This document shows, piece by piece, positions 1,114-63,094 of a DNA stretch of 64,000 bases (its first letter is position 1; each line of letters begins with the position of its first letter). This DNA is from a bacterium. Lineage in GTDB: Bacteria > Patescibacteriota > Minisyncoccia > Phycocordibacterales > UBA2100. The stretch lies in NCBI GenBank assembly GCA_030674455.1, contig JAUSGQ010000015.1, positions 5,574 through 69,573 on the forward strand, given 5' to 3'. Under the pieces are notes generated by a model, which saw only the letters and a list, made by a program, of their open reading frames with translations, searched no databases and was not told where the DNA came from. Both the position numbers and the translations under genes were made by a program.

Positions 1114-1191
1114 TACCCAGCACCTTTGTTTCATTGAGAAACGAAGGTGCTGGGTGTAAGATTTTCTAAACTCGTTATACTCGTTAACAAA
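1114..1191 (+). promoter_or_regulatory. Conserved hairpin (ACCCAGCACCTT...AAGGTGCTGGGT) plus conserved leader ending CTAACATG, copy 1 of 3, upstream of ORF 1199
   Basis: 13 bp perfect inverted repeat at 1114-1158 followed by TAAGATTTTCTAAACTCGTTATACTCGTTAACAAAATCTAAC-ATG. Near-identical copies in the same gene-relative orientation lie upstream of aroC (47364-47500) and trpE (52618-52694). Confidence 0.5.
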
Positions 1192-14478: not shown

Positions 14479-15177
14479 TTACGTCCCTACGTCACAATCT
14501 TGTCCTGACAGAACCTTGAAAGACGTCCGGTACGCATCGAGGTTGGAATATTTCTGTTTTCGGTCCTTCGTGTTCCTAACCAAATCTTCCACCTCCGTTA
14601 CTTTTTTAGAATAATCCGTATTTCCATCCAAGGCATCAAACACACAACCAAAACCTTGTCCCCTCTTTTGTGCAACAGCTACCCAAGTCTCCGAATTAAA
14701 CACCTGCGTTAATTCCATCTGCAACGCCTTAGCATACTGCAACTCGGCGGCGCGGATTTTTGCCTCGTTAGGATATTTCTTAAAAATCGCAAGTTCGACA
14801 TCGTCGCGGATGCCGTTTCCGTTTGCGTCTATTCCCTCAACAGTCGCGTCAACTTGCGCGGGGTCGGGCGGCGGCGGGAGATTCTCGCCCATTACGTCTG
14901 CGAGCGTGAGTTTTTGCGCGTGAATTTGCGCGACTACTTCTTGTGTTTTTTCTTGCTCCAATACAAAAGGAAGGCGATAAATAAGCAGGGCGACAAAAAG
15001 CCAGAACGGCACGGCAATAACCCAAAACCACCACTTGCGATAAATGGAGCGGCGGGCTACCGAAATCAAGGGTTCCCCCTGATTCTCTTCATTCCCAGGG
15101 CTGCTCATATTTGAGATTGTAGCACCGTCTCTTTTCTTAACCTCATCACTATCCACAACCCTAGAAAAAACAAACAT
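14479..15177 (-). CDS. Hypothetical membrane protein
   Basis: 232 aa with one TM (WWFWVIAVPFWLFVALLIY). No family recognised. Confidence 0.45.
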   Translation of the reverse strand: MFVFSRVVDSDEVKKRDGATISNMSSPGNEENQGEPLISVARRSIYRKWWFWVIAVPFWLFVALLIYRLPFVLEQEKTQEVVAQIHAQKLTLADVMGENLPPPPDPAQVDATVEGIDANGNGIRDDVELAIFKKYPNEAKIRAAELQYAKALQMELTQVFNSETWVAVAQKRGQGFGCVFDALDGNTDYSKKVTEVEDLVRNTKDRKQKYSNLDAYRTSFKVLSGQDCDVGT

Positions 15178-15211
15178 CCCTATCTTGCGCGGTAGCGTAA
15201 GATAGGGATGT
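15174..15211. promoter_or_regulatory. 38 bp palindrome ACATCCCTATCTTGCGC-GGTA-GCGTAAGATAGGGATGT overlapping the start codon of the PaaX-like gene
   Basis: Read from the sequence. A second copy lies at 15866-15902, immediately downstream of the same gene. Confidence 0.6.
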
Positions 15212-15791
15212 GGGACAGATTGAGGAGAAATCCCGAAAACGCCGAAAGAAGGAGAACATTCAGCAGGCAGTTCTTGCCGCGATAGGAATCGCGGGCATTC
15301 TTGCCGTGACTATGATTGCGCCAAATATCTTTCAGGCGGTTCCCGGTCTCATGGGAAGAAAGCGATACAAACTGGCCTTTCAAGCTCGCACTGCCTCTTC
15401 TCGTCTCGCCATAAAGGGCTACGTGCGATTCATTTTGAAAAATGGAAAGAAATGGATTGAGATTACTGATGCTGGAAGACGCGCTCTGTTGCTCGAGCAT
15501 GAAAAAGCGCGACTCGATGTCATACAGGGCAAACGGTGGGACAAGCGTTACAGACTGGTCATGTTTGACATCCCGCAGAAACGCAAAAACACGAGGGACA
15601 GTGTAAGACGGTTGTTGCGCGAGTGCGGGTTCCTTCGATTGCAGGACAGCGTGTGGGTATTTCCCTACGACTGCGAGGAGTTGATTGTTCTAATTAAGTC
15701 GGATATGCGGCTCGGCAAGGATTTACTGTATGTCATTGTTGATTCGATAGAGAACGACGGTTGGATAAAAAAACACTTCGGCTTGGGATGA
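15210..15791 (+). CDS. PaaX-like transcriptional regulator (N-terminal TM, winged HTH, WDxRW...FDIP central domain); paralog 1
   Basis: RWDKRYRLVMFDIPQKRKNTRDSVRRLLRECGFLRLQDSVWVFPYD resembles the PaaX central/C-terminal (Cas2-like fold) region WDGKWLLLL, and GYVRFILKNGKKWIEITDAGRRALL resembles the PaaX wHTH. GTG start. A paralog lies at 58173-58748. Confidence 0.55.
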   Translation: MGQIEEKSRKRRKKENIQQAVLAAIGIAGILAVTMIAPNIFQAVPGLMGRKRYKLAFQARTASSRLAIKGYVRFILKNGKKWIEITDAGRRALLLEHEKARLDVIQGKRWDKRYRLVMFDIPQKRKNTRDSVRRLLRECGFLRLQDSVWVFPYDCEELIVLIKSDMRLGKDLLYVIVDSIENDGWIKKHFGLG

Positions 15792-15865
15792 TGCGAGAGA
15801 TAGAAATGCGATTGATTCATTTTTGCCCTTTAGCTTTCGATGTCCATTGCATTTCACATTTCCCA

Positions 15866-15902
15866 ACATCCCTATCTCGCGCTACCGCGCAAGATAGGGA
15901 TG
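15866..15902. promoter_or_regulatory. Second copy of the ACATCCCTATCTCGCGC-tacc-GCGCAAGATAGGGATGT palindrome, 3' of the PaaX-like gene
   Basis: Read from the sequence. Together with 15174-15211 it brackets the gene. Confidence 0.6.
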
Positions 15903-15958
15903 TTTGAATGGTTGAGCGTGTAAAACTGTAAAATCGCGAATTACAGAGTCCGAGGGCG

Positions 15959-17068: not shown

Positions 17069-17071
17069 AAA

Positions 17072-17207
17072 GTGCCAATCAACGAATGAATTCCAATCTA
17101 CAAATAACTGCGAATAAAATACGCTCACCGTCTACAGGTGCCGACCAATGACCGGTCGGCCATTTGTAGCCATTTGTAGTATTCGGATGATTTGTATATT
17201 GGGACAT
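17072..17207. repeat. MITE-like intercistronic element R1 (ends GTGCCAATCAACGAATGAATTCCAATCTACAAAT ... ATTTGTATATTGGGAC), carrying the nested GTCTACAGGTGCCGACCAATGACCGGTCGGC palindrome
   Basis: Shares more than 100 bp with R5 (35290-35459) and R6 (37475-37640). Confidence 0.8.
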
Positions 17208-17795: not shown

Positions 17796-17901
17796 AAGAT
17801 GTTCCAATCTACAAATACATTCCAATCTACAAATTACCACGAATATGACGTGGTGTTATTTGTGGATATTTGTAGCATTCGCATCATTCGCAGATTGGGA
17901 C
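17794..17901. repeat. MITE-like element R2 between rpsB and tsf; it encodes the last 14 aa and the stop codon of rpsB
   Basis: CATAAGATGTTCCAATCTACAAAT...GCAGATTGGGAC. The rpsB C-terminus SQSANDANATNIHK* lies inside the element. Confidence 0.75.
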
Positions 17902-18644: not shown

Positions 18645-18845
18645 GGTTGTATGTGATTGTTTTTTGGATTCTTTAAGCACCCCCTCGTCGCATTAAAACC
18701 ACGCGTTTTCTGAACTTCAAACGGGGCAGGTGTCGCGCGAGTGTATCACAGGCAATAGGCACTAGGCAAATGACCGTACAGTCCGTAACCAGCAGTTACT
18801 AGTTAGTTGTCAATGTACCAAGGGGCGCCCTTGCCGCTTCTTTGT

Positions 18846-18883
18846 ATTGCTTTAGCAAATGCGGCCGCATTTTCTAAAGCAAT
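18846..18883. promoter_or_regulatory. Palindrome ATTGCTTTAGCAAATGCGGCCGCATTTTCTAAAGCAAT (core ATGCGGCCGCAT) in the rpsB upstream region
   Basis: One of three ATGCGGCCGCAT-centred long palindromes in the window; the others are at 20989-21028 and 40015-40056. Confidence 0.6.
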
Positions 18884-19006
18884 ATGCAGTCATACCAACA
18901 TTTTCAGTATCCGATACTTAGTTATAGACCTAAGTATCTGGATGCAAAAATCGCGAGACGCTCTGGACACTTTCGCCACTTTGTACTTATTGGTATCGTA
19001 TAGGTT

Positions 19007-19348
19007 ATGGGAAAACGCATGATAGTCCGGCGTCGGAACATACCCTGCTCGATATGCGAGAGGGTCATGCACGTTGTTTTCTACAGAGACCGTAGCTATC
19101 GCGGCGGACATTATTTTGGAAAAATTCCGATGTATCGGAAATCGGAGTTGGACAAAATGAGGCATCGCGGGCTCCACAAATCAAACATCACTCCAACGTG
19201 GACAGTCGATGTCTACAATTATGACCCCAAGCCATATGCTCATTTCGAGTATTGGGAGTGTCCGGAATGCTACTGGCATCCGAGAGTAAGAATCAACGAG
19301 ATACGCGCTTCTCGGGTCAAGGTTGCAGTGAAAAAGAAGAGGTGCTAA
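19007..19348 (+). CDS. Hypothetical Cys-rich (CxxC...CxxC) zinc-ribbon protein
   Basis: 113 aa with PCSICERV and ECPECYW motifs. Basic. Confidence 0.45.
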   Translation: MGKRMIVRRRNIPCSICERVMHVVFYRDRSYRGGHYFGKIPMYRKSELDKMRHRGLHKSNITPTWTVDVYNYDPKPYAHFEYWECPECYWHPRVRINEIRASRVKVAVKKKRC

Positions 19349-19382
19349 AAGCGTCTACTAAATCGCTGGATTCTACAAGTGC

Positions 19383-19420
19383 TTGCACAATTTTGTACAT
19401 TTTGTACAATGTGTGCATGA
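19383..19420. promoter_or_regulatory. Nested inverted repeat GCTTGCACAA-TTTTGTACATTTTGTACAA-TGTGTGCATG overlapping the phd start (candidate toxin-antitoxin operator)
   Basis: Read from the sequence. A TTGTACA direct/inverted repeat flanked by TGCACAA/TTGTGCA. Confidence 0.5.
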
Positions 19421-19668
19421 AGATTCTCACAACAACCAGCGCGCGCAAGCACATCGGAGACATTGTGAATCGCGCGAAATACCGCGGTGAGGTTTTTGCG
19501 ATCGGCAGGCGCGACTCGATTGATGCGGTTCTCATTGGATTCCCCAGATTCTACAATGCGGCGCTGGACGACATAACGAATGTGAACGCGTATTCCAGAA
19601 GCTTCGATTTTTTGGAGAACGAGCCCGATATCTATTCCGCTTCCGATTTGAAGGAGCGCTATGTCTAA
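19417..19668 (+). CDS. Phd/YefM-family antitoxin
   Basis: MKILTTTSARKHIGDIVNRAKYRGEVFAIGRR... is a typical Phd/YefM N-terminus. The stop overlaps the toxin start. Start taken at the internal M. Confidence 0.7.
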   Translation: MKILTTTSARKHIGDIVNRAKYRGEVFAIGRRDSIDAVLIGFPRFYNAALDDITNVNAYSRSFDFLENEPDIYSASDLKERYV

Positions 19669-19981
19669 AGGGCGCATTGTCCTCATTCCATTCCCTTTCA
19701 CCGACCTCTCGGGACAGAAAGTTCGTCCCGCGCTTATACTGCACGTATCGCGCGGCGATGATTGCATCGTCGCATTCATTTCTTCGCGAGCCGAGCAGAA
19801 AAGTCCTTTTGATGTTCGCATCTCCGCGACACATGCGAACGGCCTCAAAATAAATTCGGTCATAAAAGTCGATAAGCTCGCGACACTGCAAAAGAAGATT
19901 GTTATCGGTGAGCTAGGCGTTGCAGAACATCCGGTGCGTCGCGCCGTGGACGCGGCACTGCGGAAATTACTCCGCGTATGA
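19661..19981 (+). CDS. MazF/PemK-family toxin (type II toxin-antitoxin endoribonuclease)
   Basis: KGRIVLIPFPFTDLSGQKVRPALILH is the MazF/PemK signature. 8 bp overlap with the antitoxin gene. Confidence 0.75.
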   Translation: MSKGRIVLIPFPFTDLSGQKVRPALILHVSRGDDCIVAFISSRAEQKSPFDVRISATHANGLKINSVIKVDKLATLQKKIVIGELGVAEHPVRRAVDAALRKLLRV

Positions 19982-20019
19982 ACGTGTGGACGCAGACGAG
20001 GTAAATTCATGATAAAGTA

Positions 20020-20631
20020 GTGCTTATGAATAAACACAGCAAAGAACGCACGCTCGTTATCATCAAGCCCGATGGCATCCAGCGCTCGCTCATCGGCGAA
20101 ATAATGGTGCGATACGAACGGCTCGGCCTCAAGTTGGTTGGCCTCAAAATGGTCATCCCTACCACAGAGCAAATCGAGGGCCACTACACACTAGACCCGA
20201 ATTGGCGGCGCGTAACGGGCGAAAAGACGATTAAGAGCTACCGCGACCGGGGGCTTCCCCCACCGTCGGAAGACCCGCTCGCGATTACGGCGGTAATTCT
20301 CAAAAATCTCAAAAAGTACATGACAGCCGGCCCCGTCATCTGCATGGTGTGGGAGGGCGCGCACGCGGTAGAGCTCGTCCGCAAGATTACAGGCGGCACG
20401 GAACCGCGCTCGGCGCAAGTTGGAACCATCCGCGGAGACTTCGTGCTGGATTCCTACATAATGTCAGACCAAGACGACAGGGCCGTACGCAATCTCATCC
20501 ACGCTTCCGGTTCTGTTCCCGAAGCGGAAATGGAAATCCCCCACTGGTTCGAAAAAGAAGAGCTTATTGATTACAAAGTCTCGCACGAAGATATCATTTA
20601 CGGAAAAGAGTTGGAGGGAATTCTTCCTTGA
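20020..20631 (+). CDS. ndk: Nucleoside diphosphate kinase (long form with insert)
   Basis: ERTLVIIKPDGIQRSLIGEIMVRYERLGLKLVGLKM and the NLIHASGS active-site region. Confidence 0.85.
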   Translation: MLMNKHSKERTLVIIKPDGIQRSLIGEIMVRYERLGLKLVGLKMVIPTTEQIEGHYTLDPNWRRVTGEKTIKSYRDRGLPPPSEDPLAITAVILKNLKKYMTAGPVICMVWEGAHAVELVRKITGGTEPRSAQVGTIRGDFVLDSYIMSDQDDRAVRNLIHASGSVPEAEMEIPHWFEKEELIDYKVSHEDIIYGKELEGILP

Positions 20632-20942
20632 CCAAACGCGAGTGTATCTTGCATTAAGTATCTGTGAACAACTTCCTTTACAAATTTTTATGTCGCGGGA
20701 TACTTAACCCAGCGACAGGTATCACACCTGCTGGTACAACTTAGGGAGCTCGAATCGCTTCATGCTTTTGGTGTGAATGCTGAGAGCACCCACCTGGTAA
20801 AACCCAGGCTTGCCGTGCCTGCCGCGCCTTGCCGCCCCGCTAACTGCGGGGCGCTAGAGCGTAAGGGTAATCTAAAGACTGAAAGACAAACTCGAGAGCG
20901 TGCCGCAAGATGGAAAGGGCGTTTTCGGGGCCGCCCATAGAA

Positions 20943-20972
20943 ACTCCGCATCCGCGGGGTTTTTGTGTTTTA
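20943..20972 (+). terminator. Rho-independent terminator module CTCCGCATCCGCGGGG-TTTTTGTGTTTT (copy 1)
   Basis: GC hairpin plus a T run. The identical 32 bp module ATAGAAACTCCGCATCCGCGGGGTTTTTGTGT recurs at 21650-21684 after relE. Confidence 0.6.
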
Positions 20973-20988
20973 GGGAGTGCGGATGCGG

Positions 20989-21028
20989 TATCATCGTAGC
21001 CGATGCGGCCGCATCGGCTATGATGATA
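20989..21028. promoter_or_regulatory. Palindrome TATCATCGTAGCCGATGCGGCCGCATCGGCTATGATGATA (ATGCGGCCGCAT core) abutting the relBE -35 TTGACA (21034-21039)
   Basis: Read from the sequence. Operator-like position immediately upstream of the TTGACA...TATA(T/A)A promoter, 30 bp before the relB ATG. Confidence 0.6.
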
Positions 21029-21068
21029 CGGTCTTGACATATGTTTAAGCTATATATAAACTATACGC

Positions 21069-21335
21069 ATGACTACACAGGTGGTATTTAATATAGACTC
21101 GAAGGTAAAGGCGCGCGCAATGGAACGAGCCAAGCGCGAGGGTATTCCCTTTGCTTCAGTGTTGAAGCTCGCCACAAAAGCTTTTGCCGAGGGGCAATTC
21201 TCCATTGGAATCGTTGATGAAATTCTTCCTCAAAAGATGCGGCTGCTTGAGCGTGAGTCAAAATTGCTTGACAAAGGAAAAGGCCGTCGTTTTTCTTCTG
21301 TGAAAGACGCTCTCGCTTTTGTGGAGCATCTATAA
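21069..21335 (+). CDS. RelB/DinJ-like antitoxin
   Basis: 88 aa with a ribbon-helix-helix-like N-terminus (VVFNIDSKVKARAMERAKREG). Immediately upstream of the RelE-like toxin. Confidence 0.55.
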   Translation: MTTQVVFNIDSKVKARAMERAKREGIPFASVLKLATKAFAEGQFSIGIVDEILPQKMRLLERESKLLDKGKGRRFSSVKDALAFVEHL

Positions 21336-21338
21336 TAT

Positions 21339-21620
21339 ATGCGCGAGCGAGAACCGAATCGGCTGACTTTCTCGCCTTGGTTCGAGAAGGTGCTTCGGTC
21401 CTTAAAACGAAAGAATCCGAATCTGGTTCGCGCGTTTGCAAAACACCTGCCAAAAATTGTTGCGAATCCAGAACTGGGCAAGCCGTTACGACATTCTCTT
21501 CGAAACTATCGTCGCATTCATATTGAAGGTTCATTTGTCCTTTTGTATGAGATACGAGAACGCGAGGTATACCTTATTGACCTCGACCACCACGATAAGG
21601 TATACAAAAAATACTCGTAG
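21339..21620 (+). CDS. RelE/ParE-family toxin
   Basis: 93 aa with ...LRNYRRIHIEGSFVLLYEIREREVYLIDLDHH typical of RelE/YoeB-like mRNA interferases. Confidence 0.65.
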   Translation: MREREPNRLTFSPWFEKVLRSLKRKNPNLVRAFAKHLPKIVANPELGKPLRHSLRNYRRIHIEGSFVLLYEIREREVYLIDLDHHDKVYKKYS

Positions 21621-21659
21621 TCGGACTCAAAGGGCTACCCTTGGAATGGTTCATAGAAA

Positions 21660-21684
21660 CTCCGCATCCGCGGGGTTTTTGTGT
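21660..21684 (+). terminator. Rho-independent terminator module (copy 2) after relE
   Basis: CTCCGCATCCGCGGGG-TTTTTGTGT. Confidence 0.65.
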
Positions 21685-22330: not shown

Positions 22331-22388
22331 AAGGTACGAGGTTTTTTGACGGTACGGGTTCATCTTCCGTCAAAAAACCTCGTACCTT
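22331..22388. other. Long perfect hairpin (22 nt arms AAGGTACGAGGTTTTTTGACGG / CCGTCAAAAAACCTCGTACCTT)
   Basis: Read from the sequence. Lies upstream of the leuC promoter motif. Confidence 0.6.
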
Positions 22389-24797: not shown

Positions 24798-24870
24798 CTA
24801 ATCTAACCACTGCTAGCAAAACCATTTTTGCTTTCAATTCTCACCTCGCTCCCACATTTTCTAACCATTC

Positions 24871-25161
24871 TCATTCTAACATTTTGCAAAATGTTAGAAC
24901 GTGAACTGCACGGGCGGTTAGCTTATGCCTTACGCTCCTCGCGTCGTAGCGTTTCAGAATGAGTCCTGCAATTGCCATCTTGCGCAGGTGGTCGGATGCA
25001 TTCTCGTACCCGATGTTCAATCGCTCGGCGATATCCTCAACCGAAAGCTCCGGCTCTTTGTGCAACAGGTTAAGAATTTCGAGCCGCCGGTGATTCGCAA
25101 AACCTTTTACCACCCTCTCAAGCCGCCGATAGTTAGTTGGATTGTTAGTCGCTCCTGTCAT
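24871..25161 (-). CDS. ArsR/SmtB-family HTH transcriptional regulator (paralog 1)
   Basis: 96 aa with ...RRLEILNLLHKEPELSVEDIAERLNIGYENASDHLRKMAIAGLI... (wHTH). The C-terminal ...VLTFCKMLE is encoded by the 3' palindrome. Confidence 0.75.
   Translation of the reverse strand: MTGATNNPTNYRRLERVVKGFANHRRLEILNLLHKEPELSVEDIAERLNIGYENASDHLRKMAIAGLILKRYDARSVRHKLTARAVHVLTFCKMLE
24874..24899. promoter_or_regulatory. Palindrome TTCTAACATTTTGCAAAATGTTAGAA overlapping the 3' end (C-terminal codons) of ArsR paralog 1
   Basis: Read from the sequence. Same core as the 44 bp palindrome upstream of the gene. Confidence 0.65.
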
Positions 25162-25170
25162 GCTTGCATG

Positions 25171-25214
25171 TTATCCACATTCTAACATTTTGCAAAATGT
25201 TAGAATGTGGATAA
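25171..25214. promoter_or_regulatory. Perfect 44 bp palindrome TTATCCACATTCTAACATTTTGCAAAATGTTAGAATGTGGATAA between the ArsR gene (divergent) and leuA
   Basis: Read from the sequence. 10 bp upstream of the ArsR start codon. Confidence 0.7.
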
Positions 25215-25268
25215 CCGAATGAGCGGAGAGATGAAATCTCGATGAGAAAACGGTCGAGACGTAGCCGC

Positions 25269-28140: not shown

Positions 28141-28156
28141 TAATCAGGTGACTATG

Positions 28157-28260
28157 AAGTCCCAATCTGCAAATGATACGAATACTACGAATGGCTACAA
28201 ATATTACACATCTTACATTTGTAGTTATTTGTAGATTGGGATAGATTCGTAGATTGGTAC
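28157..28260. repeat. MITE-like intercistronic element R4, filling the leuB stop to ilvE start gap
   Basis: GAAGTCCCAATCTGCAAATGATACGAATAC...ATTTGTAGATTGGGATAGATTCGTAGATTGGTACAC. Confidence 0.8.
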
Positions 28261-29204: not shown

Positions 29205-29312
29205 CGGTTCCCATCGTATTCTCGAGGTGACTCCTGCCTTAACTTCGGACTCACCGAGGTGACTCCTTGGCATTTGCAAGGTGTCTCCTCGGGTTCGACC
29301 TCTCGCTTTCGC

Positions 29313-31212: not shown

Positions 31213-31255
31213 TCCCTTATCAACCCCCTTTTCAACCCCCTTTTCAACCCCTATT
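31213..31255. repeat. Short tandem repeat (TTCAACCCCCTT)x3
   Basis: Read from the sequence. It creates the STPFSTPFSTP spurious ORF. Confidence 0.7.
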
Positions 31256-31257
31256 TT

Positions 31258-31291
31258 CTTATTGCAGTGTTTTGCAAAACACTGCAATAAG
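31258..31291. promoter_or_regulatory. Perfect 34 bp palindrome CTTATTGCAGTGTTTTGCAAAACACTGCAATAAG
   Basis: Read from the sequence. Related copies lie at 31356-31387 and 31652-31683, flanking ArsR paralog 2. Confidence 0.65.
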
Positions 31292-31355
31292 ATACTGAAA
31301 GAAAAAATCGGCGCTATCGTTTTTACACTTTATCGCCCCGTCACTCAATTTCTCG

Positions 31356-31637
31356 CTATTGCAGTCTTTTGCAAAACACTAGAATAGACTCCCCGCGCGG
31401 CGTTAGTTTGTGTCGGACACTGGGTCCCTCGTTTCGCTTCAGCACAAGACCTGCAATCGCAAGTTTGCGAACATGGTCGGACGCATTTTCGTATCCAATA
31501 TCCAACCTTTCGGAAATATCCTCTACTGATAACTCCGGTTCGCGCTTCAGCAAATCCATAATCTGAACGCGCCGGTGATTAGCGAACCCCTTCACGATTC
31601 GTTCGATATTTCTGTACTGACTACTATCTACCGCCAT
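31356..31637 (-). CDS. ArsR/SmtB-family HTH transcriptional regulator (paralog 2)
   Basis: 93 aa, about 60% identical to paralog 1 (RVQIMDLLKREPELSVEDISERLDIGYENASDHVRKLAIAGLVLKR). The C-terminal ILVFCKRLQ is encoded by the palindrome at 31356-31387. Confidence 0.75.
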   Translation of the reverse strand: MAVDSSQYRNIERIVKGFANHRRVQIMDLLKREPELSVEDISERLDIGYENASDHVRKLAIAGLVLKRNEGPSVRHKLTPRGESILVFCKRLQ

Positions 31638-31651
31638 GCTCCCATTTTACC

Positions 31652-31683
31652 CTATTGCAGTGTTTTGCAAAACACTGGAATAG
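31652..31683. promoter_or_regulatory. Palindrome CTATTGCAGTGTTTTGCAAAACACTGGAATAG, 15 bp upstream of the ArsR paralog 2 start
   Basis: Read from the sequence. Confidence 0.65.
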
Positions 31684-31746
31684 AGAAAACTGTTTATAAC
31701 CGTGTACAGACAGTACAGACGAGGTGTGCGCTCCGTCGGAAACTGG

Positions 31747-33106: not shown

Positions 33107-34711
33107 TTACTGGTTGAGAGCCGCGCGGGTACTCGGGCCGACATAGCCGGCCGCTTTAATGCCTTTCGCGTTTTGGAATTTCTTGACTGCGGCTTCTGTC
33201 ACTTTCCCGAAGTATCCGGTCGCCGAGCCCGAGAAAAATCCAAGCCCGGCGAGGCGCTTCTGGAGTTCAAGAACGTCCGTCCCAGTGTCGCGCAGGCCGA
33301 TGAAATTCTTGAAGACGTACGCATCTCCCGCCGTCGTGCTCGCGCCCCCACTTGCGTTCGCCGCTCCGGAGGAACTCTGTGGCAGCGCATTGAGAGCCGC
33401 GCGAGTCGCGGGACCGACGATACCGACCGCCTGCAATCCGTTCGCCTTTTGGAATTTCTTGACGGCGGCGGTCGTGGCCGGCCCGAAGTGGCCATTCGGA
33501 ACGGCCGTTAGGAATCCTTGCTCCGCGAGTACTTTTTGCAATTGTAAAACGATATCGCTCGTTTGCCCTGGGCGCAGAGTTGCGCTGAAGATGCCGACGG
33601 AAGAAGGCGCGGGATTCGCGGCGCTTGCTGGAGTCGATAGAGTGGCGATTTGAGCCTGAACTTTGGCGACTTGGTCCAGCAGAGCGGAAAGCGCCGTACT
33701 GCTCGCGGTGCCTGATGTGGAACTGGCGACACTAGCGGAACTGGAAGCGGAAACTGCCGACGAGGGGTCAACTCCGCCGGGGCCCAGAACGACGATGGTC
33801 TGCGTCGTTGAAGCGGATTGTCCGTATGAGCCTATCGTTCCGATGACTTTGATGACATGCGTTCCGAAATCGCTCGCGAGCGGCGTCCACGAGAAGAGCC
33901 CCGACGCGTTAATGTTGCTGTTCGTTATGGATGATGTTGTACCGGTGAACGCGTCGGAGACGGAAAAGGTAGTGGGCCAATAACCCGCAGCGCTCGTCGT
34001 AAATGTAACGGTCTGACCGGGGGTAATGTTTCCCGATGGAGAGACGGACGGGATAGTGAGCGTCGGGTCCGCGCCCACGCGCAATGTTTTACTGACTGAG
34101 GCACTGCGGCCTAAAGAATCGCGGGCATATACCGTGAGAAGGTGTTCGCCTTGCTGATCCACATCCGGAGTCCAAGAGAAATTCCCCGCTGCATCAATGT
34201 TTGTATCCCTGATACTTGTCCCAGCGGTTCCGCCGAACGAATCACCGAGGGAAAAAATCGGGTTGGTGAATCCCGATGTAGTCGCGGTAAACGTAAGTTT
34301 TGCGGCGGATAAAACGGTTGTTCCGGGGGATAGTGATTGGATCGAAATCGAGGGCGGCGGAATTACGACAATCGTCGCGGTCGTACTCGCCGCATTGCCA
34401 ATATTATCAGAGGCGCTGATAGTGAGCGGGTGAGTGCCTACGTCGCTTACTGCCGGAGTCCAAGAGAACTCACCGACGACGCTGAAGTTGCTATTTGATA
34501 CAGTTGATGTGCCAAAGGCATCCGATATTACGTATATGCGCGAGGTGAAACCAGTGGGCACGATAGTGAATGCGATAGTTGTGCCGGCAGGTACCGCACC
34601 CGTTGGAGAAAGCGATTGGACGGCAATCGACAGTGTGTCTGCGAATGCAAAAGGGGCTACGAAGAGTACGCACCCGAATACCGCCGCGACAAGATGCTTA
34701 AGCGATTTCAT
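33107..34711 (-). CDS. Secreted protein with Ig-like repeats and two C-terminal peptidoglycan-binding (PG_binding_1) domains
   Basis: Signal peptide, four roughly 90 aa beta-rich repeats, then 2x ...LQKVLAEQGF...GHFGPATTAAVKKFQKANGL.... Confidence 0.65.
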   Translation of the reverse strand: MKSLKHLVAAVFGCVLFVAPFAFADTLSIAVQSLSPTGAVPAGTTIAFTIVPTGFTSRIYVISDAFGTSTVSNSNFSVVGEFSWTPAVSDVGTHPLTISASDNIGNAASTTATIVVIPPPSISIQSLSPGTTVLSAAKLTFTATTSGFTNPIFSLGDSFGGTAGTSIRDTNIDAAGNFSWTPDVDQQGEHLLTVYARDSLGRSASVSKTLRVGADPTLTIPSVSPSGNITPGQTVTFTTSAAGYWPTTFSVSDAFTGTTSSITNSNINASGLFSWTPLASDFGTHVIKVIGTIGSYGQSASTTQTIVVLGPGGVDPSSAVSASSSASVASSTSGTASSTALSALLDQVAKVQAQIATLSTPASAANPAPSSVGIFSATLRPGQTSDIVLQLQKVLAEQGFLTAVPNGHFGPATTAAVKKFQKANGLQAVGIVGPATRAALNALPQSSSGAANASGGASTTAGDAYVFKNFIGLRDTGTDVLELQKRLAGLGFFSGSATGYFGKVTEAAVKKFQNAKGIKAAGYVGPSTRAALNQ

Positions 34712-34775
34712 TAGCTTTAATTATACGCCAGAGCTGAAAACGTACCAGTCCAGCTTGGGTGCGCATCTTGCGTCA

Positions 34776-34900
34776 TTGCGAGCGGAGCGGAGCAAGCCAG
34801 AATCCTTCCCCAAGGTGAGACCTTAGGAGTGACTCTTTAAGGTCTCACCTTAAGAATTCAAATTTCCTGGATTGCTTCGCATAGCTCACAATGACAATTC
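34776..34900. repeat. Palindromic repeat R11 (TTGCGAGCGGAGCGGAGCAAGCCAG ... GGATTGCTTCGCATAGCTCACAATGACAATTC) with an inserted AAGGTGAGACCTT hairpin
   Basis: A shorter relative, R10, lies at 36805-36882. Confidence 0.6.
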
Positions 34901-34914
34901 AAGGGTATGGGTGA

Positions 34915-35289
34915 CTACTCTCCAGCTACCGCCTTTTGAAGTGCATATAGCGAAAGAAGCATGCAGGGTAACCTGGCCGGTCCTATTTTGGCGCGCATTA
35001 ATTCTTGAATCTGGTCGGGGCCGGTGGATTTTAGTTTTTTGACAGTTTTGCCAACCATCCATTCGGTAAATTGAGAGCTGGACGCAACGGAAAGCGCACA
35101 CCCCGAACCGCTGAAACGCACTTTCTCAACGACACCTTTCTTGTTCACCTTTAACTGTAAACGAATTTTGTCGCCGCACAATGGATTTACCGCTTCCGCT
35201 TCATACGTTGGATTTTTCATCACGCCGAAATTTTGCGGATTTCGGTAATGCTCCATTATTTCCTCTCTGTAGATGTCATTATTATCCAT
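34915..35289 (-). CDS. sufU: SufU/IscU-like Fe-S cluster assembly scaffold (sulfur acceptor)
   Basis: NPLCGDKIRL...GSGCALSVASSS...ARLPCMLL. Start taken at MDNND. Confidence 0.75.
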   Translation of the reverse strand: MDNNDIYREEIMEHYRNPQNFGVMKNPTYEAEAVNPLCGDKIRLQLKVNKKGVVEKVRFSGSGCALSVASSSQFTEWMVGKTVKKLKSTGPDQIQELMRAKIGPARLPCMLLSLYALQKAVAGE

Positions 35290-35459
35290 ACTTGTACCAA
35301 TCAACGAATGAATTCCAATCTACAAATAACTGCGAATGAACAACTCGCACCGTCTACAGGTGCCGACCAATGACCGGTCGGCCATTTGTAGCCATTCGCC
35401 CGCCTGCGCCGAGGCTTCGGCGGGCAGGTAGTATTCGGATGATTTGTAGATTGGGACAT
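35290..35459. repeat. MITE-like intercistronic element R5 (sufS-sufU junction) with nested GTCTACAGG and GC-hairpin modules
   Basis: Near-identical to R6 over about 165 bp. Confidence 0.85.
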
Positions 35460-37474: not shown

Positions 37475-37640
37475 GTGCCAATCAACGAATGAATTCCAAT
37501 CTACAAATAACTGCGAATAAAATACGCTCACCGTCTACAGGTGCCGACCAATGACCGGTCGGCCATTTGTAGCCATTCGCCCGCCTGCGCCGAGGCTTCG
37601 GCGGGCAGGTAGTATTCGGATGATTTGTAGATTGGGACAT
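37475..37640. repeat. MITE-like intercistronic element R6 (sufB-sufD junction)
   Basis: TGTGCCAATCAACGAATGAATTCCAATCTACAAAT...GATTTGTAGATTGGGACAT. About 97% identical to R5. Confidence 0.85.
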
Positions 37641-39072: not shown

Positions 39073-39168
39073 TTTACGAATGATGCGAATACTACAAATG
39101 GCTACAAATATAAGAAGCCTGGTATTCGTAGTTATTCGTAGATTGGAATAAATTTGTAGATTGGGACT
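39066..39168. repeat. MITE-like intercistronic element R7 (sufC-sufB junction)
   Basis: GTGCCAATTTACGAATGATGCGAATAC...ATTCGTAGATTGGAATAAATTTGTAGATTGGGAC. Confidence 0.8.
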
Positions 39169-39950: not shown

Positions 39951-40014
39951 TATGGGGCTGGATTAGCTCTCGAGCAATAGCACGCGAGGGTCGGATATAA
40001 ACTCGACTTCTAGC

Positions 40015-40056
40015 ATATTGCTGTAGCAAATGCGGCCGCATTTGCTACAGCAATAT
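40015..40056. promoter_or_regulatory. Perfect 42 bp palindrome ATATTGCTGTAGCAAATGCGGCCGCATTTGCTACAGCAATAT upstream of the suf operon
   Basis: Read from the sequence. Same ATGCGGCCGCAT core and near-identical arms to 18846-18883. Confidence 0.65.
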
Positions 40057-40083
40057 GCAACTGGAATCATTTCTCCAAATTCG

Positions 40084-41932: not shown

Positions 41933-41963
41933 AAAGATAGATTGTTACATCATTTTTAATATT

Positions 41964-42005
41964 AAACCAGCCTCCCGATGGGAGGCTGGTTTGCTGGTCT
42001 TTGTT
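41964..42005. terminator. Hairpin AAACCAGCCTCCC-GAT-GGGAGGCTGGTTT followed by a U-rich tract on the + strand; gene assignment ambiguous
   Basis: Read from the sequence. Lies between the ridA start and the trpF stop, which are both minus-strand genes. Confidence 0.4.
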
Positions 42006-42130
42006 TGGAACAACGGCGTGCAAATCAAACCCCCATCGTGGGTCGAATGATAATGCGAATCGCTATGGCCGTTGCCGCTCCTTTCATGCGTTTAATCTTA
42101 ACCATTAAGTGACAGTCTGTCAATACCTGG

Positions 42131-42781: not shown

Positions 42782-42884
42782 ACCAATATACAAATGTATT
42801 CCAATCTACAAATAACTACAAATGTAAAGCAATGTAATATTTGTAGCCATTCGTAGTATTCGTATCATTTGCAGATTGGGACAT
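42782..42884. repeat. MITE-like element R8 in the divergent trpF/trpC promoter region
   Basis: TACCAATATACAAATGTATTCCAATCTACAAATAACTACAAATG...ATTTGCAGATTGGGACAT. Confidence 0.75.
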
Positions 42885-44933: not shown

Positions 44934-44953
44934 TTACTCTGCGTCGCATCAAG

Positions 44954-45796
44954 GTGACTCCTTGCGTGCAAGGTGTCTCCTTGATGCATTTCACCACCAT
45001 GAATAACCTTGGAACACTACTTTCGGAATCTAGAGGCAAAAAACCTCTCTTCATGGCGCATATGATTGCCGGATACCCCACAATTGAGGATTCGGAAAAA
45101 GTGGCGGAAGCTCTTGTAAAAGGCGGAGCGGATATTATTGAACTGCAAATTCCTTTTTCCGACCCCATGGCCGATGGTCCGGCAATCGCGGTTGCGAGCG
45201 AAGAAGCAATAAAGGCAGGCGCGACGGTTGCAAAATCTCTTTCCCTTCTGAAAAAGGTGGCGGCTCTTGGAAAGCCGGTTGCAGTGATGACATACGTAAA
45301 TATTCCTTTCAGATACGGAATTCCCAAATTCGTAAAATCTATTGCGGATGCGGGCGCAAGCGCCCTAATAGTCCCGGACTGCCCGTTCGATACTCAAGAA
45401 GGTCAGACCTTCTTCGACAGTTGCAAAGAATGTGGCGTGTATTTTGTTCCCGTCGTTTCGCCCGGTGTGCCAAAGGAACGGCTGGAACAACTAGCATCCG
45501 CCGGAGGCGGATCCTCCTCTGGAGGAAAAGATTCAAGAGGATTCGTCTATTGCACCTCGCGCCAAGGAATCACGGGAGCAAACAGCAAATTCGCGAAAGA
45601 ACTGTTTGATTTCGTGAAAGAATTGAAACAAATTTTCAAGCTCCCCATAGCCGTCGGCTTCGGCGTTAAATCAAAGGAAGATGTCGCCGAGCTGGCACAA
45701 GTAGCCGATATAGTCATCGCCGGCAGTGTTTTTGTGAATGCAATTAAGAATTCCGGCATTGGACATGTTGAACCTCTGGTGCGAACGCTGATGTAA
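44954..45796 (+). CDS. trpA: Tryptophan synthase alpha chain
   Basis: ...MIAGYPT..., ...IIELQIPFSDPMADGP.... Contains an inserted AGGGSSSGG linker from the GGATCC palindrome (45499-45527). Start uncertain (44954, 44978 or 44993). Confidence 0.85.
   Translation: MTPCVQGVSLMHFTTMNNLGTLLSESRGKKPLFMAHMIAGYPTIEDSEKVAEALVKGGADIIELQIPFSDPMADGPAIAVASEEAIKAGATVAKSLSLLKKVAALGKPVAVMTYVNIPFRYGIPKFVKSIADAGASALIVPDCPFDTQEGQTFFDSCKECGVYFVPVVSPGVPKERLEQLASAGGGSSSGGKDSRGFVYCTSRQGITGANSKFAKELFDFVKELKQIFKLPIAVGFGVKSKEDVAELAQVADIVIAGSVFVNAIKNSGIGHVEPLVRTLM
45499..45527. repeat. GGATCC-centred palindromic element TCCGCCGGAGGCGGATCCTCCTCTGGAGGA, in-frame within trpA
   Basis: Shares an identical 18 nt half with the ilvA and aroC copies. 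Confidence 0.7.
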
Positions 45797-52617: not shown

Positions 52618-52694
52618 TCTTAACGAGTTTACGAGTTTAGAAACAGCTTACACCCAGCACCTTTGTTTCAGTAAGAAACGAAGGTGCTGGGTTA
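52618..52694 (-). promoter_or_regulatory. Hairpin ACCCAGCACCTT-TGTTTCAGTAAGAAACG-AAGGTGCTGGGT plus conserved leader ...TTAAGAAAAACTAACATG upstream of trpE (copy 3)
   Basis: See 1114-1191 and 47364-47500. Confidence 0.5.
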
Positions 52695-58124: not shown

Positions 58125-58160
58125 GGTACAATCAATCAACAGGTGTTGATGGATTGTACC
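58125..58160. promoter_or_regulatory. Palindrome GGTACAATCAATCAACAGGTGTTGATGGATTGTACC, 12 bp upstream of PaaX-like paralog 2
   Basis: Read from the sequence. A second copy lies 3' of the gene at 58764-58797. Confidence 0.6.
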
Positions 58161-58172
58161 TGACGCACCGTA

Positions 58173-58748
58173 ATGATAACGCCCAATATAAAAACTCTAA
58201 ATAATAAAAGTCGGCGCGAGCGAACTGTGCAAGTCTTAAAGATGATAGCCATCGGCGCACTTATTATTGGTATCGGTGCCGTGCCATCTCCGCGAGCAAT
58301 GAGTAAACTTCTTTCTGAATTGGCACTTGGAGATAACCAAAGAAATAGAAAGTATGCGGGCCGAAAAATCCGTGAACTGAAGAAGCGAGGATATCTTGAG
58401 GAGCATGGAGTTAGATATGCTGTCAGCGACAAAGGCCAGGAAATACTTTCTCGCGAACACATTACGAATCTTGTAATACCAAGGCCACGCAAGTGGAACG
58501 GGAAGTGGCATTTTATCATGTTTGACATTCCGCTAACAGATTCGTATGCACGTCAGGCCCTGAATAAGATTCTACTCGGCATGGGTCTGGTGCAGTATCA
58601 GCAGTCGGTTCTTATATACCCGTATCCAATCAAAGAAACTGTTCTGCATGTCTGCAGGTTTTACAAAGTCGCCCGTTATGTATCGTTCGTTACCGCGGAA
58701 GATATTGATGGCTTTGATAAACTCAAAAGACAGTTCGGCTTAACATGA
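58173..58748 (+). CDS. PaaX-like transcriptional regulator (paralog 2)
   Basis: N-terminal TM (IAIGALIIGIGAV), wHTH (HGVRYAVSDKGQEIL), and RKWNGKWHFIMFDIPLTDSYARQALNKILLGMGLVQYQQSVLIYPY, paralogous to 15210-15791. Confidence 0.55.
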   Translation: MITPNIKTLNNKSRRERTVQVLKMIAIGALIIGIGAVPSPRAMSKLLSELALGDNQRNRKYAGRKIRELKKRGYLEEHGVRYAVSDKGQEILSREHITNLVIPRPRKWNGKWHFIMFDIPLTDSYARQALNKILLGMGLVQYQQSVLIYPYPIKETVLHVCRFYKVARYVSFVTAEDIDGFDKLKRQFGLT

Positions 58749-58763
58749 AATTGCTCTGCGGTA

Positions 58764-58797
58764 GGACAATCAATCGACACCTGTTGATTGATTGTCC
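58764..58797. promoter_or_regulatory. Palindrome GGACAATCAATCGACACCTGTTGATTGATTGTCC, 3' of PaaX-like paralog 2
   Basis: Read from the sequence. Confidence 0.6.
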
Positions 58798-58820
58798 TTT
58801 GTCCTCTTGTCATGTCGTAA

Positions 58821-63093: not shown

Positions 63094-63094
63094 T

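What the first reader, a model, noticed from the sequence alone, without database searches (positions are those of the whole stretch)
18846..18883. Three long palindromes built on an ATGCGGCCGCAT core in promoter regions of rpsB-tsf, relBE and the suf operon
- The copies are 38-42 bp near-perfect palindromes at 18846-18883, 20989-21028 (abutting the relBE -35 TTGACA) and 40015-40056 (perfect, upstream of sufC).
- They share the 12 bp core ATGCGGCCGCAT. Copies 1 and 3 also share their arms, ATTGCT(T/G)TAGCAA...TTGCTA(A/C)AGCAAT.
- Dyad symmetry of this length at promoters suggests an operator for a dimeric global regulator, or a selfish palindromic element that targets promoter DNA.
Basis: seen in the sequence. 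Interest (0 to 1): 0.55.

Follow-up and report, generated by a model that had tools for sequence, protein, structure and literature searches.

The report
Dispersed palindromic sites of PaaX-like regulators
The three palindromes are real copies of a conserved 42-bp DNA site found in one group of tiny groundwater bacteria (Kaiserbacteria/Paceibacterota), most likely the docking site of an uncharacterised PaaX-like DNA-binding protein whose own gene is always bracketed by two such sites; they are not specific to promoters.

Summary

They belong to a sharply bounded 42-bp dyad family, (A/G)TAT-N4-N-TAGC-NN-ATGCGGCCGCAT-NN-GCTA-N-N4-ATA(T/C). I found 40 further instances (about 30 distinct), all in CPR (Kaiserbacteria/Paceibacterota) contigs, and none in the viral, plasmid or phage collections.

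The key lead is a ~190-aa PaaX-like protein (wHTH plus Cas2-like domain):
- In four unrelated neighbourhoods, its gene is bracketed by two family copies, about 7 nt before the ATG and 3 nt after the stop.
- More distant paralogues, including two in this window, are bracketed by different palindromes (10 of 10 genes examined).

So the sites are most likely cognate operators of this regulator subfamily.

The promoter story is only partly right:
- Sites avoid genes (P~5e-20), but they split among tandem, divergent and convergent spacers as intergenic DNA does.
- Copy 1 lies in a 1.3-kb accessory insertion that relatives lack, not in the conserved rpsB promoter.
- Copy 3 is absent from a syntenic relative, and copy 2 travels with the parDE cassette.

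Some sites elsewhere are conserved at 95-100% identity while their flanks have diverged 18-24%. How sites spread is unknown; there are no target duplications and no transposase. Novelty: a new variant of a known kind (repressor and operator).

The parts
18844..18885 (.). Family-A palindrome, copy 1 (42-bp frame; arms TATTGCTTTAGCAA / TATTGCTTTAGAAA)
   Evidence: 24.3 + 20.0 bits. The left arm plus core is 27/27 identical to the site downstream of the PaaX-like gene in L055. It lies inside a segment that relatives lack.
20988..21029 (.). Family-A palindrome, copy 2 (CATCG-type arms, one G.T mismatch)
   Evidence: 27.6 + 24.8 bits. The same 42-mer is 97-100% identical in L016, L019, L021, L051 and L063.
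40013..40058 (.). Family-A palindrome, copy 3 (perfect 46 bp; the 42-bp frame is 40015-40056), between the ilvA stop and the sufC start
   Evidence: 26.2 + 26.2 bits. It is absent from the syntenic ilvA-sufC spacer of L066.
18749..20034 (+). Lineage-specific segment carrying copy 1, ORF113 and the phd-mazF pair; absent in relatives, where ndk abuts rpsB
   Evidence: homology to L058-60 and L063 stops at 18748 and resumes at 20035.
19007..19348 (+). ORF113, a Zn-ribbon protein of unknown function, 121 nt downstream of copy 1
   Evidence: It is 62% identical (4e-59) to an ORF that ends 12 nt before the family-A site of the PaaX-like cassette in L053/L054. No Pfam or PADLOC hit.
19417..19981 (+). 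Phd/YefM-like antitoxin and MazF/PemK toxin pair within the inserted segment
   Evidence: Pfam.
21034..21062 (+). Promoter-like site TTGACA-17-TAAACT, 5 nt after copy 2; the ATG follows 6 nt later (leaderless-type start)
   Evidence: It is conserved in L063, but there it lies 25 nt from the palindrome.
21069..21620 (+). Antitoxin (88 aa) plus ParE/RelE-type toxin (93 aa) cassette downstream of copy 2
   Evidence: Pfam ParE_toxin. The cassette is present or absent together with copy 2 among relatives.
20935..20967 (+). Terminator CATAGAAACTCCGCATCCGCGGGGTTTTTGTGT, first copy of the 33-bp direct repeat that bounds the copy 2 + parDE indel
21652..21684 (+). Second copy of the 33-bp direct repeat that bounds the copy 2 + parDE indel
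15174..15906 (+). Paralogous system in the window: PaaX-like gene 15210-15791 bracketed by its own dyads, 15174-15211 and 15863-15906
   Evidence: Pfam PaaX_M 1.4e-15. tblastn to the L042 protein gives 33% identity, 6e-23. Dyads.
58125..58798 (+). Second paralogous system: PaaX-like gene 58173-58748 bracketed by its own dyads, 58125-58160 and 58763-58798
   Evidence: Pfam PaaX_M 5.9e-16. Dyads.

Best explanation
The three palindromes are solo copies of a 42-bp two-fold-symmetric DNA site conserved in Kaiserbacteria/Paceibacterota (candidate phyla radiation). It is most likely the cognate binding site (operator) of one subfamily of small (~190 aa) PaaX-like proteins. These proteins have an N-terminal MarR/PaaX-type winged helix and a C-terminal Cas2-like dimerisation domain.

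Shown:
- The site family, its sharp boundaries and its conserved blocks.
- Its strict avoidance of genes.
- Genes of this protein subfamily are bracketed by two copies at fixed offsets, and paralogues by other palindromes.

Inferred:
- A dimer binds the dyad, much as E. coli PaaX binds its 39-bp TGATTC-N27-GAATCA operator.
- At its own gene, the upstream site overlaps a leaderless-type promoter and gives autorepression. The site after the stop codon acts as a second operator or roadblock.
- Solo copies place other junctions under the same protein. In this window these are the ORF113-phd/mazF cassette, the parDE cassette and the ilvA|sufC junction.
- Solo sites are gained and lost together with accessory DNA. 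The cognate gene for the window's copies should lie elsewhere in the source genome.
For: 1. Family:
- The pattern TAGCNNATGCGGCCGCATNNGCTA (about 1 chance hit expected) gave 14 loci in the genome collection and 26 in the metagenome collection. All named ones are CPR.
- The viral hits are non-palindromic chance matches. There were no plasmid or phage hits.
- TAT at positions 18-20 was not in the search pattern, yet it is present in 55-60 of 60 half-sites. Symmetry ends at position 21/22.

2. Cognate protein:
- In L042, two copies bracket a PaaX_M-domain gene with 1-3 nt gaps.
- Orthologues at 85, 80 and 77% identity, in unrelated neighbourhoods, are all bracketed by the same family.
- The 65% paralogue has core TGTCCGGCCGGACA.
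- The two window paralogues, L021 and two genes in L066 each have their own dyads. That makes 10 of 10.
- 9 of 10 are divergent from their upstream neighbour.

3. The protein is a plausible DNA binder:
- Pfam PaaX_M at 1e-16 to 1e-18.
- The NCBIfam PaaX match spans the wHTH and the middle domain.
- The AlphaFold model's best PDB matches are Rv0674 and E. coli PaaX, then Cas2.
- PaaX is an autorepressing dimer with a 39-bp dyad operator (PMC9493321).

4. Sites look maintained:
- Orthologous sites are 42/42 and 40/42 identical while their flanks are 76-82% identical.
- Only one degenerate relic was found in 452 kb.
- 2 of 31 sites lie in ORFs although the DNA is 82% coding, P=5e-20.

5. ArsR-type regulators in the window show the same bracketing by their own palindromes. 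This architecture therefore goes with repressors here.
Against: - No binding has been shown. Protein and site could co-vary simply because they are linked and diverge together.
- The cognate gene was not seen in the window, and the source genome was not found.
- About a fifth of the sites lie between convergent genes, and one lies inside an intact reverse-transcriptase ORF. A classical operator has nothing to regulate in either place.
- Neighbouring genes share no function, so no conserved regulon is visible.
- Variable positions are symmetric between arms far more often than independent half-site evolution predicts: 70 double-sided changes against 23 +/- 4.
- Identical 42-mers sit at non-orthologous places in different species. 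This requires a copying mechanism that the operator model does not supply.
- Two of the three window copies are absent from close relatives.
Confidence: 0.55

Rival explanations
1. The 42-mer is a mobile or selfish palindromic repeat, analogous to REP/REPIN sequences with their RAYT gene or to a minimal MITE. On this view the bracketed PaaX-like/Cas2-like gene is the element's own mobilising or maintenance protein. Solo copies would be transposed copies, or solo-LTR-like footprints left when a bracketed gene was deleted by recombination between its two flanking sites.
For: - The same 42-mer is 97-100% identical at non-orthologous places in different species.
- Copies 1 and 3 are absent in close relatives, and sites lie at indel boundaries.
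- The gene-plus-sites unit occurs in unrelated neighbourhoods and at least twice in one MAG.
- PaaX-like cassettes are present or absent between syntenic genomes.
- Assemblies break inside the downstream palindrome.
- Hybrid-arm copies exist.
- The arms co-vary.
- The Cas2-like domain keeps the Asp of the Cas2 beta1 motif and reaches NCBI's Cas2 cutoff for some members.
- The architecture mirrors RAYT genes flanked by their cognate REPs (my own knowledge of that literature).
Against: - No target-site duplication at any boundary.
- No isolated half-sites, and only one decayed relic in 452 kb.
- Low copy number: 3 per 64 kb, and at most 5 strict matches per MAG.
- Orthologous copies are kept at 95-100% identity while their flanks have diverged 18-24%.
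- No transposase or recombinase in the window or next to the sites.
- Neither the protein nor the site occurs on viral, plasmid or phage records.
- ArsR-type repressors, which have no nuclease-like domain, show the same bracketing.
Confidence: 0.2
2. The palindrome works as an RNA (or single-stranded DNA) hairpin. It could be a U-tract-independent bidirectional terminator, an RNase III processing site or a transcript stabiliser between genes. The protein association would then be incidental.
For: - Many copies start 1-29 nt after a stop codon: copy 3, L014, L017, L021, L030, L047, L050 and every site downstream of a PaaX-like gene.
- The hairpins are very stable, -14 to -25 kcal/mol as DNA, z = -4.6 to -9.4.
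- There is strong arm covariation.
Against: - No T/U tract, and no terminator-like call at any of the three copies, although canonical terminators exist nearby.
- Imperfect copies show no excess of G.U-compatible mismatches: 27 of 66 are transition type.
- Seven sites lie in divergent spacers.
- The sequence of the core, TAGC and TAT blocks is conserved, not merely their pairing.
- A zero-spacer dyad is typical of a protein site.
Confidence: 0.1
3. The palindromes are site-specific recombination sites that bound exchangeable gene cassettes (integron-attC-like or dif-like), with crossover in the GCGGCCGC core.
For: - Copies 1 and 2 adjoin toxin-antitoxin cassettes that vary between relatives.
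- Hybrid-arm sites look like recombination products.
- Genes are bracketed by two sites.
Against: - No integrase or recombinase was seen near any site.
- The copy 2 + parDE indel is bounded by a 33-bp direct repeat of a terminator, not by two palindromes.
- The sites lack the attC R''/R' (GTTRRRY-type) ends and the unpaired bases of attC (direct reading).
- A fully palindromic core would give no directionality.
Confidence: 0.07

Closest known systems
PaaX repressor and its operators (E. coli, Pseudomonas)
   Same: - N-terminal winged helix plus central Cas2-like domain (Pfam PF20803).
- The best structural matches of the model are Rv0674 and E. coli PaaX.
- Dimeric, and autoregulates its own promoter.
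- The operator is an unusually long dyad: TGATTC-N27-GAATCA, 39 bp, against 42 bp here (PMC9493321).
   Different: - The protein is only ~190 aa and lacks the C-terminal phenylacetyl-CoA-binding domain.
- It scores 24-37 bits against a 264-bit equivalog cutoff.
- There are no paa genes.
- The site is conserved along its whole length, including a GC-rich centre, not only at the two ends.
- The gene is bracketed by sites on both sides, there are many paralogues per genome, and there are dispersed solo sites.
REP/REPIN sequences and their RAYT (TnpA-REP) genes
   Same: - A single-gene unit flanked by its cognate palindromes.
- Solo palindromes of the same family are dispersed in intergenic DNA.
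- Several paralogous protein/palindrome pairs occur per genome.
- No target duplications.
   Different: - The flanked gene is not an HUH/Y1 transposase.
- Copy number is tens at most, not hundreds.
- The palindromes are perfect zero-spacer dyads rather than imperfect hairpins led by GTAG.
- Orthologous copies are conserved across about 20% divergence.
Dispersed palindromic operators of heat-shock and other regulons (for example CIRCE/HrcA, TTAGCACTC-N9-GAGTGCTAA)
   Same: A long inverted repeat bound by a dedicated repressor, present in a few copies per genome. There is even a superficial TTAGCA...TGCTAA resemblance in copy 1.
   Different: CIRCE sits at a conserved set of chaperone promoters. 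Here the neighbouring genes are heterogeneous, sites also occur in convergent spacers, and no groES/dnaK link exists.
MITEs / Correia-type miniature elements
   Same: Short, intergenic, terminal-inverted-repeat-only DNA that can carry promoter or terminator activity and shows presence/absence between relatives.
   Different: No target-site duplication, no parent IS or transposase, only 42 bp, and very low copy number.
Cas2 / VapD
   Same: The C-terminal domain has the Cas2 fold and the beta1 'xDIx' Asp. Some database records name these proteins Cas2.
   Different: It is fused to a wHTH. There is no cas1, CRISPR array or other cas gene in any locus seen. The match covers only the first half of the Cas2 models.

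Membership tests
PaaX family (TIGR02277 equivalog) | Central Cas2-like domain (Pfam PaaX_M, PF20803) | tested here: met
   E = 1e-15 to 3e-18 for the L042 protein, P0001, P0003, P0040 and both window paralogues.
PaaX family (TIGR02277 equivalog) | N-terminal winged-helix DNA-binding domain | tested here: inconclusive
   - No Pfam wHTH model passes its threshold.
- The NCBIfam PaaX alignment starts at profile position 37-68.
- There is a weak MarR hit, E = 0.17.
- The model has a helical/winged N-terminal half at pLDDT 55-72, and its best folds are Rv0674 and PaaX.
PaaX family (TIGR02277 equivalog) | C-terminal ligand-binding (phenylacetyl-CoA) domain and full-length score above the curated cutoff | tested here: not met
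   The proteins end at ~190 aa. They score 24-37 bits against a cutoff of 264.55, and the match covers profile positions ~37-150 of 279.
PaaX family (TIGR02277 equivalog) | Genomic association with paa catabolic genes | tested here: not met
   The neighbours are fusA/rpsG, NUDIX, guaB, purD, ridA-ilvA, nifU and others.
PaaX family (TIGR02277 equivalog) | Binds a long dyad operator and represses its own promoter | not testable with these tools
   The geometry is compatible: a 42-bp dyad ends 0-12 nt before the start codon of 10 of 10 genes. Binding itself was not tested.
REP / RAYT system | The flanked gene encodes an HUH Y1 transposase (RAYT) | tested here: not met
   The flanked gene is PaaX_M/Cas2-like, with no Y1_Tnp hit.
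REP / RAYT system | High-copy (tens to hundreds) intergenic imperfect palindromes with a conserved 5' GTAG | tested here: not met
   There are 3 copies in 64 kb and at most 5 strict matches per MAG. The [G/C]TAGC block is internal to each arm, and the copies are zero-spacer dyads. They are intergenic, which matches.
MITE | Target-site duplication flanking terminal inverted repeats, with a related autonomous IS | tested here: not met
   There is no direct repeat of 3 bp or more above expectation at boundaries 19-24. There are no isolated half-sites, and no transposase in the window ORFs that were scanned.
Intrinsic (rho-independent) terminator | GC-rich stem-loop followed by a T tract | tested here: not met
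   The terminator scan calls none of the three copies. The flanks show no T run.
Integron attC site | R''/L''...L'/R' organisation with GTTRRRY ends, extrahelical bases and a nearby intI integrase | tested here: not met
   The ends are TAT/ATA, copies are perfect or near-perfect dyads, and no integrase appears in any locus gene table.
CRISPR-associated Cas2 | Stand-alone ~90-aa protein encoded next to cas1 and a CRISPR array | tested here: not met
   It is fused to a ~100-aa N-terminal domain. No cas1 or array is in the flanking 10 kb. The Cas2 model matches only positions 3-46 of 96.

The most novel reading that the evidence does not exclude
The wHTH-Cas2-like protein and its bracketing palindromes form a previously unrecognised class of self-propagating DNA element, a functional analogue of REP/RAYT built on a Cas2-fold protein instead of an HUH transposase. 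On this reading the protein recognises, and helps to copy or maintain, its cognate 42-bp palindromes around CPR genomes. Hundreds of protein/palindrome specificity pairs would then have diversified in Kaiserbacteria/Paceibacterota.
Probability: 0.12. Interest if true: 0.85.

Novelty: new variant of a known kind. Interest (0 to 1): 0.55.

Why it matters
Gene regulation in candidate-phyla-radiation bacteria is essentially unstudied, and they cannot be grown alone.

This analysis pairs a large, unnamed protein family with precise, long DNA sites. The family has about 240 clusters at 50% identity with strong matches and thousands of weaker ones. Databases label its members 'hypothetical', 'PaaX' or 'Cas2'.

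The protein-site pairs can be tested in vitro with synthetic protein and oligonucleotides. If confirmed, several things follow:
- It would give the first regulator-operator code for this lineage.
- It would correct the Cas2 mis-annotations.
- It would explain recurrent assembly breaks.
- It would provide a natural set of orthogonal repressor/42-bp-operator pairs.

The bracketing of each regulator gene by two cognate sites, and the unexplained spread of identical sites to new loci, also raise a real question: how do operators move?

Tried and rejected
- **CIRCE/HrcA resemblance** (TTAGCA...TGCTAA in copy 1). Rejected: wrong spacing, no chaperone genes, and other copies differ.
- **Nested sub-palindromes in the arms** (CATCG-TAGC-CGATG). 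Not general across arm types.
- **The palindrome as a symmetric bidirectional promoter.** -10-like TAnnnT and TNATAY hexamers occur in some arm types only. Only copy 2 has a good promoter call, and that lies outside the palindrome. This survives only as an inference for the regulator's own upstream site.
- **Larger IS with these ends.** No isolated half-sites.
- **Target-site duplications.** None.
- **RNA-level selection.** No G.U bias, and no Rfam family.
- **NotI / restriction link.** GCGGCCGC occurs 9 times in the window, 6 of them outside the palindromes.
- **Palindrome as a net 14-codon insertion in the L018 reverse transcriptase.** First suggested by a 7-residue gap against the solved bRT structure. 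Withdrawn after alignment with four phage RTs showed that this loop varies in length and is no longer in L018 than in BalMu-1.
- **Source genome.** Exact-protein look-ups of sufC, ilvA and parE found nothing. No fetched contig is the window's own.
- **PaaX-like genes on viral contigs.** None.
- **Literature.** The core string hits only NotI cloning primers. Nothing came up for PaaX or Cas2 combined with CPR, Kaiserbacteria or palindromes.
- **Sequence search of the protein against PDB.** Nothing significant.

Full report
**1. Observation**

- Copy 1 is at 18845-18884: 20-nt arms with one C/T mismatch.
- Copy 2 is at 20988-21029: 21-nt arms with one G.T mismatch.
- Copy 3 is at 40013-40058: a perfect 46-bp palindrome.

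ATGCGGCCGCAT occurs exactly three times. At 50% GC, about 0.004 are expected in 64 kb (my calculation).

TAGC two bases outside the core and TAT at the outer end are common to all three copies.

The flanking gene labels are correct: Ribosomal_S2, NDK, Phd/MazF, ParE toxin, SufC-type ABC ATPase and threonine dehydratase.

The window is unusually rich in long dyads, 18 against about 0.6 in shuffles. They fall into several sequence families.

**2. A conserved, lineage-specific 42-bp element**

I scanned the public collections with the two-sided pattern TAGCNNATGCGGCCGCATNNGCTA. It has 20 specified bases, so about one chance hit is expected.
- The species-representative genome collection gave 14 loci. 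All are CPR/Patescibacteria MAGs (Kaiserbacteria, Paceibacterota, Parcubacteria), with up to five loci per MAG.
- The metagenome collection gave 26 more loci.
- A looser one-sided pattern on viral contigs gave 12 hits, and none extends as a dyad.
- The element is absent from the plasmid and phage collections.

Over 30 distinct sites (60 half-sites), the frame is (A/G)TAT-N4-N-TAGC-NN-ATGCGG|CCGCAT-NN-GCTA-N-N4-ATA(T/C).

Positions 1-6 and 9-12 from the centre were fixed by the search. TAT at positions 18-20 was not, and it is present in 58, 60 and 55 of 60 half-sites. Positions 13, 15 and 16 are moderately conserved, and symmetry stops at position 21/22.

Variable positions 7, 8, 14 and 17 are identical between the two arms in 70-80% of sites, against 27-40% expected. 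The formal count gives 70 double-sided changes against 23 +/- 4 in shuffles, with 0 of 500 shuffles reaching the observed value. About a third of the copies nevertheless combine arms of two different types.

A weight-matrix scan finds only the three known copies in the window and no isolated half-sites. Only one further degenerate copy turns up in 452 kb of related DNA.

**3. Where the sites sit**

I called genes with a codon-usage log-odds method that I trained on the long ORFs. It is ad hoc, so individual calls may be wrong.
- Of 31 distinct sites, 2 lie within ORFs although 82% of the DNA is coding (P = 5e-20).
- Among intergenic sites the split is 13 tandem, 7 divergent and 6 convergent. 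This matches the share of intergenic bases in those classes, 58:23:19%. So there is no enrichment for spacers that contain promoters.
- Neighbouring genes share no function: M16 peptidase/alaS, trmH, aroE, yidC-jag, an SPFH protein, rbfA, membrane proteins and small unknowns.
- One site lies inside an intact DGR-type reverse-transcriptase ORF next to a bAvd gene. I first read this as an in-frame insertion. Alignment with four phage RTs then showed that the loop varies in length and is not longer in this RT. I therefore claim only that a site is tolerated inside a gene.

**4. The associated protein**

In L042, two family copies bracket a single 190-aa gene with gaps of 1-3 nt. Its product carries the PaaX central Cas2-like domain (PF20803, 1.6e-17).

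It has more than 160 homologues at 60-85% identity in Kaiserbacteria/Paceibacterota. Their sources name them hypothetical, PaaX or Cas2.

Contigs for three orthologues lie in unrelated neighbourhoods. These are P0002 (85% identity), P0003 (80%) and P0005 (77%); the last two are from one MAG. Every one has an ATGCGGCCGCAT palindrome ending about 7 nt before the ATG and another starting 3 nt after the stop. Three of the short contigs end inside the downstream palindrome, as an assembler does at a repeat.

The 65% paralogue P0040, from the same MAG, is bracketed by a different palindrome with core TGTCCGGCCGGACA.

Other paralogues are bracketed by their own dyads:
- The two in this window, at 15210-15791 and 58173-58748.
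- One in L021.
- Two in L066, with cores TTACGCCTAGGCGTAA and ACGCCATGGCGT.

That makes 10 of 10 genes examined. Nine of the ten are divergent from their upstream neighbour.

What kind of protein is it?
- It is not a PaaX equivalog. It scores 24-37 bits against a cutoff of 264 and lacks the C-terminal domain. It sits at NCBI's Cas2 threshold, which explains the Cas2 labels.
- An AlphaFold model (pLDDT 73; the Cas2-like half scores 80-90) finds M. tuberculosis Rv0674 and E. coli PaaX as its best PDB matches, followed by Cas2/VapD.
- E. coli PaaX is a wHTH dimer that represses its own promoter and binds TGATTC-N27-GAATCA, a 39-bp dyad (PMC9493321).
- The short family is large: 244 clusters at 50% identity with E <= 1e-30, and 2,710 with E <= 1e-10.
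- Two ArsR-type regulators in the window are bracketed in the same way by TTTTGCAAAA palindromes.

**5. History of the window's three copies**

*Copy 1.* In relatives whose S2 protein is 86% and 79% identical, ndk lies directly next to rpsB and there is no palindrome. One relative has a different small gene there. Window 18749-20034 (copy 1, ORF113 and phd-mazF) is a lineage-specific insertion. The conserved rpsB upstream block ends at 18748, about 100 bp from the palindrome. ORF113 has a 62%-identical homologue that ends 12 nt before the family-A site of the PaaX-like cassette in L053/L054. The left arm and core of copy 1 are 27/27 identical to the site downstream of the P0003 gene.

*Copy 2.* The palindrome and the adjacent antitoxin gene are present in the 79% relative (L063/L064) and absent from the 86% relatives. 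In the window the segment is bounded by a 33-bp direct repeat of a terminator. In L063 the palindrome is perfect and the toxin-antitoxin promoter is conserved, but 20 extra bp separate them.

*Copy 3.* A syntenic relative (SufC 82% identical) has a 543-nt ilvA-sufC spacer with a small ORF and no palindrome.

By contrast, orthologous sites elsewhere are 42/42 identical (L021/L051) and 40/42 identical (L047/L049/L052), while their flanks are 76-82% identical. So sites turn over, but once in place they can be strongly maintained.

**6. Mechanism**

The best-supported reading is that the 42-mers are cognate operators of a PaaX-like repressor subfamily.

At the regulator's own gene, the proximal arm carries -10-like hexamers (TAGAGT, TAATAT/TATAAT) placed for a leaderless start. 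The distal arm often reads TTGC(T/C)G, which is -35-like. This fits autorepression, but it is an inference.

The site after the stop codon may be a second operator or a roadblock. Solo copies would extend the same control to other junctions.

The arm symmetry at non-conserved positions needs another cause. Two candidates are known templated 'quasipalindrome correction' during replication (established mutational mechanism, from my own knowledge) and arm types that track paralogue specificity. I could not decide between them.

An RNA-hairpin function is not favoured. There is no U tract, no terminator call and no G.U bias.

**7. What remains open**

How do identical 42-mers reach new, non-orthologous places? 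I found no target duplications, no transposase and no half-sites. Hybrid arms and cassette indels would fit recombination between sites, or solo-LTR-like loss of a bracketed gene.

The architecture closely parallels REP sequences and their RAYT genes, but with a Cas2-fold protein. The Cas2 beta1 Asp is invariant in the family. I give this more novel, mobile reading about 12-20%.

**8. Caveats**
- The search pattern enforces the core and both TAGC blocks. Conservation there and copy numbers per genome are therefore by construction or lower bounds.
- The source genome was not found, so the cognate gene for the window's copies has not been observed.
- Binding is inferred, not shown.
- The gene calls around the sites are my own approximation.

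**9. Verdict**

Noticed in passing
window 24868-24905, 25170-25215, 31253-31296, 31356-31387, 31650-31685: A second zero-spacer palindrome family has a TTTTGCAAAA core. It brackets two small ArsR/HTH_5-type regulator genes (24871-25161 and 31356-31637, minus strand). The arms differ between the two loci. The perfect 46-bp copy at 25170-25215 contains the consensus DnaA-box sequence TTATCCACA in both arms.
   Followed up: partly
window 17070-17115, 35297-35337, 37476-37518, 39124-39164, 62996-63036; L055 105-150: A ~41-nt direct-repeat element is built of CCAATC[A/T]AC[G/A]AAT units. In four of the five window copies it ends 8-10 nt before start codons when read on the coding strand; the copy at 39124-39164 lies in the opposite orientation. 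Examples are the sufD and sufS region and the gene after tsf. It may be a shared leader or translation-initiation element. Related ~100-nt matches to L021 3387-3500 lie at 17801-17901, 28153-28260, 42783-42883 and 62990-63102.
   Followed up: partly
window ~20700-20830 plus terminator 20935-20967: A non-coding block downstream of ndk is 88-92% identical in three relatives, more conserved than the flanking genes, and ends in a canonical terminator. It looks like a small RNA gene but matches no Rfam family. The window carries a ~100-nt insertion (20842-20934) that the relatives lack.
   Followed up: partly
window 1115-1155 and 52652-52692; L013 6978-7038: An 18-nt-arm dyad, ACCCAGCACCTTTGTTTC-N5-GAAACGAAGGTGCTGGGT, is present twice in the window 51 kb apart and again in another species. 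It may be a solo-site family of another regulator.
   Followed up: no
window 29255-29293, 44946-44987, 34811-34851, 22331-22388: Further intergenic dyads are present: GGTGACTCCTTG...CAAGGTGTCTCC (two copies), AAGGTGAGACCTTAGG..., and a 22-nt-arm repeat. Several recur at 93-98% identity in loci L016, L020 and L026 of other species.
   Followed up: no
window 21057-21071; L047 ~790-812; PaaX-like gene starts in L053, L055 and L056: Start codons lie 6-7 nt after a -10-like hexamer (TAAACT, TACAAT, TATAAT, TAATAT) with no Shine-Dalgarno sequence. This suggests that leaderless mRNAs are common in this lineage.
   Followed up: no
L018 671-2094 (= L039): A diversity-generating-retroelement-type locus (an RVT_1 reverse transcriptase plus a bAvd accessory protein) carries a perfect family-A palindrome inside the intact RT ORF. 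The palindrome lies in the variable loop before the GLPLGNLTSQ motif.
   Followed up: yes
L066 7028-7588 and 14457-15044 compared with window ~41960-42130 and ~34700-34915: Whole PaaX-like cassettes (gene plus bracketing dyads) are present in a syntenic relative next to ridA-ilvA and between the nifU genes, but absent at the corresponding places in the window. The cassettes themselves are therefore indel-polymorphic.
   Followed up: partly
window 53906-56725: A 939-aa protein has weak TraG/TraD-type coupling-protein and HerA-like ATPase matches. It sits in an otherwise housekeeping region near one PaaX-like cassette.
   Followed up: no
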